Shown here piece after piece: positions 1-4,207 of a stretch of DNA of 64,000 nt. Location of the stretch: assembly GCA_964270895.1 (NCBI GenBank), contig OZ185442.1; one strand, 5' to 3'. The position numbers were made by a program. Position 1 is the stretch's first letter; each line of letters starts with the position of its first letter. Source of the DNA: Podarcis filfolensis (Eukaryota).

Positions 1-3000
1 TTAGTTTGTTTTCGGTTGTTAGTTTGTTAATGTGGCTAATATTGTAGATTAAAAGTGCTGTAGTGCTTTGTGAATCTTATAACATGACCTGTGTGGTGGC
101 TGTGCTGTTTAGCTTATTTTTTTTAGTTGTTTCGTTAATAGTGTTTTCTAGAAGGTGCTTGTTTTACTGATTATTTGTTAATTATTCTATACAGTGGTAC
201 CTCAGGTTAAGTACTTAATTCGTTCCGGAGGTCCATACTTAACCTGAAACTGTTCTTAACCTGAAGCACCACTTTAGCTAATGGGGCCTCCCGCTGCCAC
301 CACACCATTTCTGTTCTCATCCTGAAGCAAAGTTCTTAACCTGAAGCACTATTTCTGGGTTAGCGGAGTCTGTAACCTGATGCGTATGTAACCCGAGGTA
401 CCACTGTAATTGTGGTGTTCTATCATGTTATTGTCATTGATTGTTTGTGAGCCACGTTGTGACTCATGTGAGTGAAAAGCAGCATAGAAAATGAAATGAA
501 CTCACTCCTGTAAGGTGGAGCCTACCTCTGACAGGGAGATTATGGGCCTTCCTTTCTTCCCAGGGGTCACAGTAGTACTGGCTCATGGATCTCACAGTCG
601 CTTGGCCCACCACAGGCTTAAATCCAAACTCTCTGTGGTCTATCACCTTCAGTTCGATAGGAAGCGCATAATCTTCATCCACAGGCAGGTACTAAGAGAG
701 ATCAGGAGGGGCTGCATGAGGTTCTTCCAGGAGAGGAACGCCTGGGGATCCATTTCAGGGATGATGAGACAAAGACAGCTGTGCACATACTGTCATGCTG
801 TCCAAGGGAGGAGATGACACCTCTAAGGTTTCAGTATAGCTAGTAACTAAAAAGATGCCTATTTAAATGAGCATGCCTGGCCTAAAGCTGCTTGCTTAGA
901 TAAGCATTTGTGGCTCTTGACGACACACGCTACCAGTTTGGCTAGAGGCAGGGCTGGCCCAAGACATTTTGTCACCTGAGGCAAACCAGAGAATGGCATC
1001 CCCTCTCCTCCCACGAGGGAAGAAAGGGTGAGAGAAGATCTACATCTGGAACAAGGGTGGGAGGAGACCAGCAGTGCCTCCTGTTCACTAAGATCGCCAT
1101 ATGGGACAGCTGAATATTCCTGCATTGCAGGGGGCTTGGCTAGATGATCCCATGGGTCCCTTCCAACTCTACAATTCTATAAGATTCTAAGAAGCTACTG
1201 TGGAGGTGGCATGGGAGGCCTGCTGAGGAGGCAGCAGATCCAGCCCCCAAGGAGCACGCTGCAAGAGAAAGTATAGCTAGTAAAGGAGACATGAGGCAAA
1301 AGGTCACAGTGAAAATGTGGATTGCAAAATCTGATTAGCAAACTCTAAAATGGTGGAGATGATGGACTTCCGGGTTGGCGCCTCCAGGCAATGGCGGAGT
1401 TCCTCCGATCGGGAGGAATTTGCTCCGTGGAAATCAGGGTCTGACCGCCACGGCGAAGGCGGAGACCCACTGAAATCACAGGCGGGAGAAGCTTGTGAAC
1501 CTGGGATTCGGCTGGCACCTTTTGCGCCTCCCCTACTCGTGGGGAAACCCTGATTTGGGGATCCGGAGCGAAGTGGGGTGAGCGGCGCGGTGCTTCAAAT
1601 TGACTGCTTCTTTCATGGAGTGAAGCTGCATCGCTGTTGCCGGAGAGCGCTGACTTTTTCCTGTGGACAATTTGACTTTAAACAACTACCCATGAGTAGA
1701 ACGGAAAATTGGATCTTTAAATTTATTAATTTGGCATCGAAACGGGAAGGTTTTAAACAGGAAGTCCGCCTTCCTCTTTTGTAAATAGATTGAAGCAAAG
1801 ACGTTGCAAGTTAAAGCCTTGGAAAGTCTTTTGTAAAGGATTAAATCTCCATCGGTTAAAACTATTAAACCCCCCTTGGAAGCAGGAGAAGAGGGGGGAA
1901 ATTTTGGACCTAGCGAGCCTGCAGGAGAGAGTGAAAAATCAAATTACCACTGCTCTGAACCTGGAAACGGGCTGCCAGTAAGATTGACGTCTTGGGAGAG
2001 TTCATTGACTGTGAACAGAAAGCATGTTGACAGATGGCTAAATAAGAGAAATACATTGTTTCCATGGTCCCCTTCTGCGTTTAAAAAGGAGGAAAAGTGA
2101 AAATTGAAACTAACTTTATAATTTAAATTGTGTTTGAAAGGATTGATACAAGTGGAGACTGGTTCCCTCTAGAGGGAGCTTTTGAAACTGTTACAAGAGT
2201 GGAGCTGGGGTTTTTCCAGCTGCAAGATAAGAACTGTGAGAATCAGAGATTGACCTTGGATTTTAAGAATGTTGACAGAAGGAGCCTTAGTGACTGTATT
2301 ATGTAAGATAAGCTATTCGTTGGAACAGCTCCACAAGAAGACGGATGTTATGACTACTAAACTTGAGAACTTGGGACAAAAAGTTATTAATTTGGGACAA
2401 AAAGTGATCATCAATACAGAAATTGTTCAGGACTTGACACAGGAACCTACTTTGACAGGACAAACTGGGGAGAAAACAAAGGAGAAAGTTGTTGTTGTCG
2501 AACCTAAAGTAATACAAGTGGGAGCCCCAGCCTTACAGAGGCAAATCGAGGACTATAAGTGGAGGCCTTTTATGAATGAATATAGAAAAAGTCAGAATTT
2601 GAAGATTGGAGCCCTGCTTGGACTGGAGAAGGAAGGTTGGATAGACTCCTTCATGCAGGGATTTACTGACCTTTGGGTCCTGAATCTGGGTCAGGAGGTG
2701 ATTGGAGTTGTGGGGGCCTTTGGATCTGGAGGAGCTTTGAAACATGATTTGAGAGATTGTATGGACCTTGGTTCTAGCTGTGGAGAGTTGGCTGGTCTGT
2801 CGAGAGGGAATGGGGGCATGGTTGGGTCGCCCCCCCCCGAGACCTGCTCTTCAGCATCTTCAGCATCAAAGAATATGAAGAAAAACTGCAGAAGGGACTT
2901 GGAGAAGATTTAAGAGCCTCGGACAGAAGATCTCCAGGTTGATGAACTATATGGAATGGACGGAAATGACTGGCAGAATCCGAGACCAGGGAGAAGAGAT

Positions 3001-4207
3001 GGTGGAGAAAGATTGGGAAAGTTTAAAGTTTATATATAGAAATATTGTAAAATTAATGAGTGTTAGAAAATTGTTGGAATGAAACTTTATGGCTTTAGTA
3101 GAAATGTTATAAGGGGTTAAGTATAAATAAGCACTTTAGTATTAATGGAAATTAAGGTTAAAAATATGTTAAGATATTCATAATGATAAAAATAGAGAAA
3201 GATGGAAAGGAATTGCTGAAACAAGTAACAGAAGTGGAATACAAAAAGGGAGGTGTGAGGGAATAAGGGAATGAAATAAGGGAATGAAAGATAGAGTAAT
3301 GAAATGGTATGGTATATGTTTTTAAATTGTTGTTGTTTTGTTTTGTTTTGTTTAGTATGTTAAGGTTGTGTTTTGTATTGTTTATATATTGTATTGTTTC
3401 TTCTTTTTTTCTTTTTTCTTCTTTGTTCTATTTTGCCTTTTTCTCTCGCCTTTTTTCTTCTTTTTTCTTTTCTTGTAAGTCTTAAAAGTAATAAAGATTA
3501 TTTTAAAAAAATGGTGGAGATGATGATGATTACTGGAGGAGAGGTTAGTTTCATCTCAAGTCTTAAGATTTGCCCTTGGAAACTGTCTCTGCCATATGCT
3601 AGGGGCCCACTCACCACTTTCATGAGATAGATATTGATTGGAAAATTGGAGTGCTCTTGCAGATTCCTGATGACTGGCGTCTGAAGCGTTTCTCCTCCAC
3701 ACTCTATGATGAGACTCGGATTGCTGATGGCCAGCAGATTGTAGGTCTTCATGTCCCGCAGGCCCCAAGCCAGGATCTGTGGGAACATCGTGATAAATAT
3801 TTATAAAAGCAACAGCTCAGCAGAAAGTGGGGCCACAGGGCCTGAGGCTCTGCTTTCTGGATTGGTTGCAGGGTTGGACCAATCCATCCATTTTACTTCC
3901 CCTGAACTTTTGAAGAGTTAAATGATAATTGTGGAGTTTACACCCCCCCACGTGCAATCTTTTTAATTCATGATGTTTTATAATGCTTTATTCTCTCCCC
4001 CCCCCCCATGCATGCTGTAAGCCAGTGTTCCCCAACCTTGGGCCTCCAGCTGTTTTTGGACTACAATTCCCATCATCCTTGACCACTGGTCTTGCTAGCG
4101 AGGGATGATGGGAGTTGTAGTCCAAAAACAGCTGGAGGCCCACTGCTGTTGGGGAACACTGCTGTAAGACACCCAGAGTGGCTGGGGAAACCCAGCCAGA
4201 TGGGCAG

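What the first reader, a model, noticed from the sequence alone, without database searches (positions are those of the whole stretch)
1365..3507. TSD-flanked 2.1-kb half-L1-like element: 5'-complete, ORF1-like ORF intact, ORF2 almost entirely absent
Seen in sequence: an 18-bp TSD brackets a unit with about 900 bp of 5'UTR, a stop-free 214-aa coiled-coil ORF, only the last ~45 codons of L1 ORF2 (frameshifted), a 3'UTR and AATAAA. The first ~600 bp align with the L1 at 48876 and the ORF2 tail aligns with the L1 at 8456-8907. Established: L1 copies usually lose their 5' end, and ORF1-only HAL1 elements are known from mammals. Inference: both termini, TSD and poly(A) signal are intact, so this short RNA may itself have been retrotransposed. 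That would make it a non-autonomous squamate L1 derivative keeping its own diverged ORF1p and using the L1 RT in trans.
Basis: partly seen in the sequence, partly recalled or inferred. Interest (0 to 1): 0.72.

Follow-up and report, generated by a model that had tools for sequence, protein, structure and literature searches.

The report
Lizard half-L1 retrotransposon copy
This is a recently inserted 2.1-kb copy of a lizard LINE-1 derivative that has lost almost all of its reverse-transcriptase gene and keeps only a shortened first gene, a reptile counterpart of the mammalian "half-L1" elements.

Summary
An exact 18-nt target-site duplication (1347-1364 / 3508-3525) brackets a 2143-nt unit. It has an L1 5'UTR that starts at the same nucleotide as another L1 in the window, and a stop-free 214-codon ORF. 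About 44 frameshifted codons of the ORF2 tail follow, then an L1 3'UTR, AATAAA and a 3-7 nt A run.

The ORF is a true but shortened L1 ORF1 relative. It matches lizard-type ORF1p at E 6e-18 to 6e-14, keeps the coiled coil and lacks about 40 residues of the RRM/CTD.

Six other short proteins in public data, one named from Podarcis lilfordi, share the start Met. Four of them span the deletion site and all four share the deletion. Three of the six end ...RDLRASDxRxPG, and in the window that stop lies in ORF2-derived DNA. The ORF1/ORF2-tail junction is therefore a family trait, not a local deletion.

This copy is frameshifted near a C9 run (2830-2838), so its last 25 or so codons are out of the family frame.

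Best reading: a HAL1-type non-autonomous L1 family of lacertid lizards, mobilised in trans. Genomic copy number, independent TSDs, dN/dS and Repbase/Dfam status could not be checked.

The parts
1347..1364 (+). Left copy of the target-site duplication (AAAATGGTGGAGATGATG).
   Evidence: Exact 18/18 direct repeat with 3508-3525. On the bottom strand the pre-insertion site reads CCATTTT/AGAG, which fits the TTTT/A preference of L1 endonuclease. The sequence is read; the consensus is recalled.
1365..2268 (+). L1-type 5'UTR, 904 nt, 5'-complete.
   Evidence: 1365-2060 aligns with the L1 at 48874-49605 (515/677 identical, score 492 against shuffles 28 +/- 3). Both insertions start at the same nucleotide, GACTTC(C/T)GG. 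2061-2268 has no match in the window.
2269..2913 (+). Stop-free 214-codon ORF: a shortened L1 ORF1 derivative. It holds the coiled coil, the first part of the RRM, a ~40-residue gap and a CTD remnant. From about 2838 onward it is read out of the family frame.
   Evidence: ORF listing. 0 of 20000 shuffles stop-free. phmmer hits to lizard-type ORF1p at E 6.6e-18 to 2.2e-05. Alignments A1/A3. tblastn places P0004 residues 16-172 on 2314-2811 in this frame. Helix 4-64 at pLDDT 70-83. Pfam: no family at E <= 10.
2811..2838 (+). Interval holding the frameshift of this copy. It contains a run of nine C at 2830-2838.
   Evidence: P0004 16-172 maps to 2314-2811 in the ORF frame and P0004 182-212 maps to 2838-2939 in another frame. 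Sequence.
2838..2942 (+). Family-frame end of the ORF (...EDLRASDRRSPG) with its stop TGA at 2940-2942, followed by a second TGA.
   Evidence: Aligns with the C-termini of P0004, P0011 and P0012, all ...RDLRASD[LI]R[SL]PG (A4). 2865-2918 matches the ORF1 tail of the L1 at 49842-49895.
2918..2934 (+). Junction between the ORF1 tail and the ORF2 tail. The end of ORF1, the inter-ORF spacer and nearly all of ORF2 are missing here.
   Evidence: ORF1-tail homology ends at 2917. ORF2-tail homology to 8858-8620 (minus strand) starts by 2934.
2934..3066 (+). Relic of the last ~44 codons of L1 ORF2. Frameshifted near 3019, with a premature stop in the ancestral frame.
   Evidence: blastn 79% to 8858-8723. 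tblastx to 8859-8737 and 54768-54935 in two frames. DNA alignment with a 1-nt gap.
3067..3507 (+). L1-type 3'UTR with a T-rich low-complexity stretch (3327-3474), AATAAA at 3490-3495 and a short A run from 3505.
   Evidence: 3144-3372 aligns with the 3'UTR of the truncated L1 at 8705-8487 (score 108 against shuffles 37 +/- 4.5). There is no significant match to the 3'UTR of the L1 at 54915-55130 (43 against 35 +/- 5.6). Tandem repeats; sequence.
3508..3525 (+). Right copy of the target-site duplication.
   Evidence: Exact repeat of 1347-1364.

Best explanation
The unit 1365-3507 is one retrotransposed copy of a HAL1-type ('half-L1') non-autonomous derivative of a squamate L1.

Origin (inferred): in the founder of the family an L1 lost the last codons of ORF1, the inter-ORF spacer and all of ORF2 except about 44 codons. 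It also lost about 40 residues inside ORF1, covering the second half of the RRM and the start of the CTD. What remained was an L1 5'UTR (presumed promoter), an ORF of about 200-220 codons starting at an internal Met of ORF1, and the L1 3'UTR with its poly(A) signal.

Mobilisation (inferred): RNA of this short unit is transcribed from its own 5'UTR. It is reverse-transcribed at a TTTT/A nick by ORF2p supplied in trans by autonomous L1s. That gives full-length short copies with TSDs.

Protein: the encoded protein keeps the coiled coil and is modelled as a parallel trimer. It cannot form a complete RRM. If the ORF matters, it is more likely through oligomerisation or translation in cis than through canonical ORF1p RNA chaperoning (inference).

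This copy: it is young, because the TSD is perfect and the ORF is open. It carries a frameshift near the C9 run at 2830-2838, so it is probably not itself a source element.
For: Shown:
- An exact 18-nt TSD.
- The same 5' terminus as an independent L1 at 48874, and 76% identity over about 700 nt of 5'UTR.
- ORF2 tail and 3'UTR homologous to a typical 5'-truncated L1 that has its own 17-nt TSD at 8456-8922.
- The ORF is significantly open: 0 of 20000 shuffles stop-free, and 6-17 stops in the other frames.
- ORF1p homology: 8 proteins at E <= 0.001 among 1.84 billion representatives. They include full-length 356- and 362-aa ORF1p (P0006 at E 6.4e-14, P0010 at E 2.2e-05). P0006 in turn matches the human L1 ORF1p structure 2ykp across RRM and CTD at E 0.0046.
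- Family: six other short proteins (P0004, P0007, P0008, P0011, P0012, P0013). P0011 is named 'Hypothetical predicted protein [Podarcis lilfordi]'.
- In A3, the 4 of these that span the site (P0004, P0007, P0011, P0012), together with the window ORF, share one 40-column gap relative to P0006 and P0010.
- 3 of the 6 (P0004, P0011, P0012) run to the same C-terminus as the window's family frame. There the stop lies 2 codons into ORF2-derived DNA.
- The short forms and the full-length forms fall on opposite sides of a 100/99 split (11 rows, P0008 left out).
- Coiled coil: three copies of residues 1-130 scored 0.74 against a best control of 0.11. That mark was reached by 21 of 30 proteins solved as pairs of one chain and by 0 of 23 solved as single chains. 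The runs agree in at least 48% of their contacts and the partner pLDDT is at least 50. The verdict was 'supports binding; does not show it'. Contacts follow a heptad pattern over residues 4-57.

Inferred: trans-mobilisation, promoter activity, and the order of the two deletions.
Against: - No second genomic copy could be inspected. The junction is shared only as judged from protein C-termini, and no independent TSDs were seen.
- The six relatives are only 35-52% identical to the window ORF. Five come from about 1-kb contigs of an unnamed source.
- Only open ORFs enter protein databases, so their openness is biased evidence for selection.
- 3 of the 6 (P0007, P0008, P0013) do not reach the common C-terminus.
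- This copy's own ORF is frameshifted.
- The RRM deletion makes a canonical ORF1p function unlikely, so 'keeping its own ORF1p' may overstate what the protein does.
- Pfam finds no Transposase_22 in the ORF. It also finds none at E <= 0.01 in the full-length lizard ORF1p P0006 and P0010, so this says little either way.
- L1 ORF1p trimers are solved structures, so the pass may reflect likeness only.
- The A tail is very short (3-7 nt).
Confidence: 0.7

Rival explanations
1. A one-off or short-lived dead end. An aberrant L1 RNA, either spliced between a donor at the end of ORF1 and an acceptor near the end of ORF2 (as in human SpIREs) or transcribed from an internally deleted L1, was retrotransposed now and then. 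There is no self-sustaining non-autonomous lineage, and the ORF is not under selection.
For: - Spliced L1 RNAs are known to be retrotransposed and are generally dead ends (PMC5860796, abstract read).
- The junction reads ...TCTCCAG|GTTGATG. The related truncated L1 has ...CCAAG|GTGATAG at the matching place, which could serve as an acceptor.
- Internally deleted L1 products are common in these data. P0003 is an ORF1 N-terminus fused to an ORF2 C-terminal part, and the L1 at 48874 lacks the ORF1 N-terminal half.
- This copy's ORF is frameshifted.
Against: - The short forms fall into at least three deeply diverged groups: the window with P0008; P0004 with P0013; and P0011, P0012 and P0007. Identity between groups is 27-44% over alignments of 35 residues or more.
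- Even so, P0004, P0011 and P0012 keep the same start, the same internal deletion and the same stop. Their differences include several in-frame indels.
- That pattern fits long propagation of a coding unit better than repeated accidents.
- The parent's splice sites could not be examined.
Confidence: 0.18
2. A full-length L1 inserted here and was later cut down at this locus by two or more genomic deletions. On this reading the half-L1 look is post-insertional.
For: - Non-mammalian genomes are said to delete DNA fast (PMC5381506, passage).
- The other L1 in the window (48874-55125) is riddled with deletions and a nested insertion.
Against: - The same internal ORF1 deletion is seen in the 4 other short proteins that span the site.
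- The same C-terminal stop just past the junction is seen in 3 other proteins, one of them from a named lacertid species. Their 35-42% identity is far too low for orthologues of this locus.
- The TSD is perfect and the ORF is open, which speaks for a young, little-altered insertion.
Confidence: 0.05
3. The ORF is a host gene domesticated from L1 ORF1 (as L1TD1 is in mammals), and the L1-like flanks are incidental.
For: - Open ORFs are kept among diverged relatives.
- Domestication of L1 ORF1 is known (PMC4161310, title and abstract start in the listing).
Against: - The unit has L1 UTRs on both sides, a poly(A) signal and a TSD.
- It lies antisense in an intron of a ferlin gene about 90 nt from an exon.
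- Several diverged paralogues exist.
- This copy is frameshifted.
Confidence: 0.02

Closest known systems
Mammalian HAL1 (half-L1) elements, including rat RNHAL1
   Same: - L1 5' part plus ORF1, with ORF2 deleted.
- L1 3' end with poly(A), flanked by TSDs.
- Non-autonomous and dependent on L1 RT/EN.
- They arose repeatedly.
Sources: PMC5753468 passages, PMC5322556 passages, PMC2241872 passage.
   Different: - The host is a lizard. In the passages I read HAL1 is described for mammals only.
- The ORF1 here is itself cut down: about 40 residues of RRM/CTD and the N-terminal basic region are missing, whereas HAL1 is described as encoding ORF1p.
- About 44 codons of the ORF2 tail are retained.
- The A tail is very short.
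- Copy number is unknown.
Squamate (Anolis-type) L1 with type II ORF1p
   Same: - The 5'UTR, the coiled coil, parts of RRM and CTD, the ORF2 tail and the 3'UTR are homologous to L1 copies in the window and to full-length lizard-type ORF1p.
- Lizard coiled-coil domains are reported as unusually conserved (PMC5381506 passage).
   Different: - No endonuclease or reverse transcriptase is present.
- The ORF is 214 codons against 356-362 in full-length ORF1p.
Human SpIREs (spliced integrated retrotransposed elements)
   Same: Full-length-ended L1 copies with a precise internal gap that arose at the RNA level. Some produce non-functional ORF1p variants (PMC5860796 abstract).
   Different: - SpIRE gaps lie within the 5'UTR or between the 5'UTR and ORF1, and ORF2 is kept.
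- SpIREs are described as dead ends, whereas the family here looks diversified.
- A splice origin was not testable here.
Truncated human ORF1 proteins that suppress L1 in trans
   Same: [quoted passage not shown] The coiled coil is needed for the effect (PMC5605252 abstract).
   Different: Those proteins come from stop codons in otherwise full-length L1 loci and were tested in human cells. No such test exists for this protein.

Membership tests
HAL1-type non-autonomous L1 derivative | 5' end derived from L1 and complete | tested here: met
   1365-2060 is 76% identical to the L1 at 48874-49605. Both insertions have the same first nucleotides.
HAL1-type non-autonomous L1 derivative | ORF2 (EN and RT) absent | tested here: met
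   Only 2934-3066 is ORF2-derived, about 44 codons and frameshifted. No other ORF of more than 76 codons lies on the element's + strand.
HAL1-type non-autonomous L1 derivative | Encodes a complete ORF1p | tested here: not met
   There is a 40-column gap against P0006 and P0010, covering the second half of the RRM and the start of the CTD. The N-terminal ~50 residues are absent. This copy is also frameshifted at 2811-2838.
HAL1-type non-autonomous L1 derivative | L1 3' end, poly(A) signal and tail, and a TSD showing retrotransposition of the short unit | tested here: met
   The 3'UTR is homologous to the L1 at 8705-8487. AATAAA lies at 3490-3495 and an A run at 3505-3511. The TSD is 18 nt and exact.
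HAL1-type non-autonomous L1 derivative | Several independent copies share the deletion junction | tested here: inconclusive
   3 of 6 other short proteins end at the stop that lies just past the junction. No genomic DNA of other copies was available, because the eukaryotic genome collections were not on hand.
HAL1-type non-autonomous L1 derivative | Mobilised by L1 ORF2p in trans | not testable with these tools
   Inference from the TSD, the TTTT/A target and the lack of an RT.
L1 ORF1p, type II (Pfam Transposase_22) | Match to the Pfam Transposase_22 models | tested here: not met
   0 families at E <= 10 for the window ORF. The full-length lizard ORF1p P0006 and P0010 also show no such match at E <= 0.01, so the models are insensitive to this clade.
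L1 ORF1p, type II (Pfam Transposase_22) | Sequence homology to proven ORF1p | tested here: met
   Window ORF to P0006 at E 6.4e-14. P0006 to human L1 ORF1p 2ykp at E 0.0046 over RRM and CTD, and to 2ldy at E 0.027. The profile of A3 itself finds no ORF1p chain at E <= 1.
L1 ORF1p, type II (Pfam Transposase_22) | N-terminal coiled coil that multimerises | tested here: met
   Helix 4-64 at pLDDT 70-83. Three copies of residues 1-130 scored 0.74 against a best control of 0.11. The mark was reached by 21 of 30 proteins solved as pairs and 0 of 23 solved as single chains. Runs agree in at least 48% of contacts and partner pLDDT is at least 50. This is a prediction only and may reflect likeness to solved ORF1p trimers.
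L1 ORF1p, type II (Pfam Transposase_22) | Complete RRM and CTD | tested here: not met
   Alignments A1, A3 and A5. The deleted stretch corresponds to P0006 residues of about 211-248, which align with chain positions of about 115-152 of 2ykp.
SpIRE-like spliced L1 retrocopy | GT...AG at the gap borders in the parent L1 | not testable with these tools
   No close full-length parent was available. The 79%-identical truncated L1 has AG just before the matching point, which is only suggestive.

The most novel reading that the evidence does not exclude
Lacertid lizards harbour an old, diversified lineage of half-L1 elements whose protein has been reduced to little more than the ORF1p coiled coil. 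The ORF is kept by selection because the nascent short protein co-assembles with ORF1p of autonomous L1s. By that route it either steals their ORF2p for its own RNA (a protein-level hitchhiker) or poisons their particles (a dominant-negative brake, as truncated human ORF1p does). This would be a mode of LINE parasitism that needs no working RNA-binding domain.
Probability: 0.15. Interest if true: 0.7.

Novelty: new member of a known kind. Interest (0 to 1): 0.45.

Why it matters
Half-L1 elements are described for mammals in the papers I could read. A reptile lineage with the same architecture would show that ORF2 loss with ORF1 retention is a recurrent outcome of L1 evolution outside mammals too.

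Its cut-down ORF1 keeps the coiled coil but breaks the RRM. That offers a natural experiment on which part of ORF1p a non-autonomous element needs in order to be picked up by ORF2p.

For genome annotation, such copies and their roughly 200-aa 'hypothetical proteins' should be labelled as L1 derivatives and not as genes. One such protein is deposited for Podarcis lilfordi.

Locally, the insertion sits antisense about 90 nt from a ferlin exon.

Tried and rejected
- Pfam on the 214-aa ORF, the 46-aa ORF2-tail ORF and the 67-aa 5' ORF: no family at E <= 10.
- Word-indexed protein search with the ORF alone: 258 candidates, none at E <= 0.01.
- ESM Atlas: no usable hit.
- AlphaFold2 of the window ORF with 8 rows: mean pLDDT 48, and only the N-terminal helix is usable. 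The control with full-length P0006 and 10 rows was equally poor (mean pLDDT 52.5; RRM-like strands only at pLDDT 45-59). The lack of a folded domain in the short form therefore says nothing, and no fold search was run.
- Profile of A3 against PDB sequences: only weak coiled-coil matches at E 0.3-0.8.
- A suspected internal duplication (2004-2037 against 2249-2282) was not above shuffles (33 against 28 +/- 5, maximum 53) and was dropped.
- TSD of the L1 at 48874: no shared word of 10 nt or more was found.
- Bao and Jurka 2010 (PMC2923044) is not held. It is known to me only through citations.
Copy number, independent TSDs and dN/dS therefore stayed unchecked.
- No supplements were consulted.
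- Rfam at gathering thresholds finds nothing inside the element.
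Full report
**What is there**

The window has no N. I do not take it for human. Its repeats are lizard-type, and the nearest named relative of the ORF is from Podarcis lilfordi.

An exact 18-nt direct repeat, AAAATGGTGGAGATGATG, lies at 1347-1364 and 3508-3525. It brackets 2143 nt (1365-3507).

The pre-insertion site read on the bottom strand is CCATTTT/AGAG. 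That fits the TTTT/A nick preference of L1 endonuclease; the consensus is recalled and was not tested here. The 3' end carries AATAAA at 3490-3495 and an A run at 3505-3511. Of that run, 3-7 nt belong to the element, because the TSD itself begins with AAAA.

**5' part**

- 1365-2060 aligns with 48874-49605: 515 of 677 aligned positions identical, score 492 against 28 +/- 3 in 100 shuffles (searches agree).
- The element starts GACTTCCGG, directly after the TSD.
- The L1 at 48874 starts GACTTCTGG, directly after the broken C-terminus of a BovB/RTE-like ORF.
- Two independent insertions that begin at the same nucleotide argue that this is the true 5' end of the L1 RNA. The element is therefore 5'-complete.
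- 2061-2268 has no partner in the window.

**The ORF (2269-2913, 214 codons)**

It is open far beyond chance. None of 20000 shuffles was stop-free, and the other five frames of the stretch hold 6-17 stops.

Three searches found nothing: Pfam, the word-indexed search and the ESM Atlas.

phmmer against 1.84 billion representatives found 8 proteins at E <= 0.001:
- P0006 (356 aa, E 6.4e-14) and P0010 (362 aa, E 2.2e-05) are full-length lizard-type ORF1p. They have an N-terminal basic region, a coiled coil, an NLRIRAVPE-type RRM and a FRWEFPQGLSF-type CTD.
- P0006 matches the solved human L1 ORF1p 2ykp over RRM and CTD at E 0.0046.
- Pfam also fails on P0006 and P0010 at E <= 0.01. The missing Transposase_22 hit therefore reflects the models, not a lack of homology.

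**How the ORF differs from ORF1p**

In alignments A1 and A3 the window ORF starts at a Met that is internal in full-length ORF1p. It follows the coiled coil and the first RRM elements up to ...LRDC. It then skips a block of 40 alignment columns (P0006 ...ISLRSREERDKILNLHYQKALVIEGVRIEIFKDIPKYL...). It resumes in the CTD.

Mapped through, the missing block covers the second half of the RRM and the linker into the CTD. The assignment of strands and helices to these residues is recalled.

**The family**

Besides the full-length proteins, the searches returned six short relatives:

| Protein | Length | Found in | Source |
|---|---|---|---|
| P0004 | 212 aa | | lgn |
| P0007 | 174 aa | | lgn |
| P0008 | 123 aa | | lgn, seen on 5 contigs |
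| P0011 | 201 aa | (4 hits among 3410 candidates) | 'Hypothetical predicted protein [Podarcis lilfordi]' |
| P0012 | 196 aa | | lgn |
| P0013 | 154 aa | (2 hits among 219 candidates, one being the query) | lgn |

- All rows that span the site (window, P0004, P0011, P0012, P0007; 5 of 5) share the same 40-column gap. P0008 and P0013 do not cover it.
- The window ORF, P0004, P0007, P0011, P0012 and P0013 start at the same Met. P0008 does not align at its N-terminus.
- P0004, P0011 and P0012 (3 of 6) end ...RDLRASD[LI]R[SL]PG.
- P0007, P0008 and P0013 stop or diverge earlier.

**The junction**

- ORF1-tail homology to the L1 at 49847-49894 ends at 2917.
- Homology to the ORF2 tail and 3'UTR of the truncated L1 at 8858-8620 (minus strand) begins by 2934.
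- The window's ...EDLRASDRRSPG is followed by TGA at 2940-2942, inside the ORF2-derived stretch.
- Full-length ORF1p runs on for about 30 more residues at this point.
- Three other proteins that stop right after ...PG are therefore best explained by the same ORF1-tail/ORF2-tail junction. This is indirect evidence from proteins only.

**This copy is damaged**

tblastn puts P0004 residues 16-172 on 2314-2811 in the ORF frame, and residues 182-212 on 2838-2939 in another frame (A4). The shift lies in 2811-2838, which holds a run of nine C (2830-2838).

The 214-codon ORF therefore reads its last 25 or so codons out of the family frame and ends at 2913 by chance. P0008 reads the same out-of-frame tail (...PEICS..KNMK..RRDVEMS against ...PETCSS..KNMKKNCRRDLEKI). 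That only shows it is a further related copy.

**ORF2 relic and 3'UTR**

- 2934-3066 matches the last ~44 codons of ORF2 of the L1 at 8858-8723 (79% identity) and, more weakly, 54768-54935.
- A 1-nt gap near 3019 shifts the frame, and the ancestral frame then meets a stop.
- 3144-3372 aligns with the 3'UTR of the same truncated L1 (score 108 against 37 +/- 4.5). It does not align with the L1 at 54915-55130 (43 against 35 +/- 5.6).
- The truncated L1 at 8456-8905 has its own 17-nt TSD and an A9 tail. It is an ordinary 5'-truncated copy and a good comparator for the 3' end.

**Relations among the proteins**

- Window ORF identity is 50% over 122 residues to P0003, whose N-terminus is of the full-length type. 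It is 52% over 73 residues to P0008, 42% to P0004, 39% to P0011 and P0007, and 35% to P0012.
- P0011, P0007 and P0012 are 61-81% identical to one another.
- A maximum-likelihood tree of the part aligned with window residues 1-126 was built with 11 rows. P0008 was left out as too short and frameshifted.
- The tree separates the six short forms from the five full-length-type rows by a branch with support 100/99. The window copy sits on a short branch (0.23). The two other short groups sit on long stems (0.96 and 1.18).
- This fits one origin followed by long, fast divergence. The root is not known.

**Structure**

- AlphaFold2 of the window ORF gives only a confident N-terminal helix (residues 4-64, pLDDT 70-83; mean 48).
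- The control with full-length P0006 was no better (mean 52.5). The unfolded C-terminal half is therefore not evidence.
- Three copies of residues 1-130 scored 0.74 against a best control of 0.11.
- That mark was reached by 21 of 30 proteins solved as pairs of one chain and by 0 of 23 solved as single chains.
- The runs agree in at least 48% of contacts and the partner pLDDT is at least 50. The verdict was that the model supports binding but does not show it.
- Contacts run in heptad register over residues 4-57.
- ORF1p trimers are solved, so this pass may reflect likeness. Lizard ORF1p has been suggested possibly to form tetramers (PMC5381506, passage).

**Mechanism**

Shown: the anatomy, the homology, and the family traits at protein level.

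Inferred:
- The short RNA is transcribed from the L1 5'UTR.
- ORF2p of autonomous L1s nicks TTTT/A, primes on the short A tail and copies the whole 2.1-kb RNA. That gives the TSD.
- The ORF, where intact, supplies a coiled-coil protein without a complete RRM.
- Why diverged members keep it open is unknown.
- Database ascertainment (only open ORFs are deposited) weakens the case for selection.

**Rivals**

- A dead-end retrocopy of a spliced or deleted L1 RNA (0.18).
- Post-insertion deletions (0.05).
- A domesticated gene (0.02).

Details are given in the fields above.

**Comparison with what is known**

- HAL1 is described as a non-autonomous L1 derivative that encodes only ORF1p, arose several times in mammals, and carries poly(A) and TSDs (PMC5753468 passages; PMC5322556 passages).
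- Rat RNHAL1 may still propagate (PMC2241872 passage).
- The present element works like a HAL1 but fails the 'complete ORF1p' feature.

Is a reptile HAL1 in print? I ran these searches:
- 'HAL1', 'half-L1', 'ORF1': 32 papers held at least two of the three terms.
- 'HAL1' plus squamate and lizard terms.
- 'HAL1' and 'lizard' together: 9 papers. None is about reptile HAL1 by title or abstract start, and I read passages in 2 of the 9.
- 'HAL1-like', 'ORF1-only', 'lacking ORF2' and similar terms: 29 papers.
- Passages of three L1 surveys (PMC5203782; PMC3787681; PMC5381506) do not mention HAL1. 'Nonautonomous' occurs once, in PMC3787681, and refers to human Alu.

Not seen: Bao and Jurka 2010, which is not held; Repbase and Dfam, which are not on hand; and supplements, none of which were read. 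The family may therefore already be catalogued under an L1 name.

**Context**

- The window lies in a ferlin gene on the minus strand. Pfam finds FerI at 36334-36735 and a weak FerB match at 17689-17991.
- The stretch 3779-3612 on the minus strand matches dysferlin residues 1382-1437 at E 4.8e-15.
- With a GTGAGT donor at 3614-3609, the element lies antisense about 90 nt into the following intron.
- I searched this one exon on its own and did not join any exons into a spliced model.

**Verdict**

Interest is moderate (0.45).

Noticed in passing
window 48874-55125 (+): A decayed L1. It has a 5'UTR, but ORF1 lacks everything before the CTD (49692-50006 matches ORF1p C-termini at 53-67%). ORF2 starts with an endonuclease piece at 51075-51563 (Pfam Exo_endo_phos, E 4.6e-08). 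The ORF2 tail lies at 54190-54914, and an (AAAT)n tail lies near 55100. No TSD of 10 nt or more was found.
   Followed up: partly
window 50010-50961 (+): A 333-codon open frame (P0001) sits between ORF1 and ORF2 of that L1. By eye it looks like the C-terminal part of another non-LTR retrotransposon ORF2, with a C..C....H....C motif near its end. Pfam finds nothing at E <= 1. It is probably a nested 5'-truncated insertion.
   Followed up: partly
window 48554-48873 (+): An open frame ending ...RRGRQRTRWLDSVLEATNMSLTKLRETVEDRSAWR. From memory it resembles the C-terminus of BovB/RTE-type ORF2. It is cut off exactly where the L1 at 48874 begins.
   Followed up: no
window 8440-8922 (-): An ordinary 5'-truncated L1 copy of about 450 nt. 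It holds the last ~60 codons of ORF2, a 3'UTR, AATAAA and an A9 tail. Its 17-nt TSD, TATCATTCACTCCTCCC, lies at 8922-8906 and 8456-8440.
   Followed up: yes
window 3612-3779, 17689-17991 and 36334-36735 (all -): A ferlin-family gene on the minus strand. One exon matches dysferlin 1382-1437 (E 4.8e-15) and myoferlin (E 2.7e-14). Pfam finds FerI (E 1.9e-09) and a weak FerB match (E 8e-04, below its cut-off). The half-L1 lies antisense about 90 nt from the exon's donor site. The exons were not joined.
   Followed up: partly
window 17142-17214 (+) and 29662-29720 (+): Two Rfam tRNA matches (47.1 and 34.8 bits) inside the ferlin gene. They may be heads of tRNA-derived SINEs and not tRNA genes.
   Followed up: no
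P0009 and P0003 (public proteins, not in the window): P0009 (422 aa) joins a RING and B-box (TRIM-like) N-terminus to the RRM and CTD of a lizard-type L1 ORF1p. P0003 (340 aa) joins an ORF1 N-terminus and coiled coil in frame to what looks like a C-terminal piece of L1 ORF2. Both are either gene-model artefacts or further products of L1 rearrangement or exonisation.
   Followed up: no
window 3262-3289 and 3327-3474 (+): The element's 3'UTR holds a perfect 13-nt tandem repeat (AATAAGGGAATGA, 2.2 copies). It also holds a 150-nt T-rich low-complexity tract that is much shorter in the related L1 at 8487-8560.
   Followed up: no
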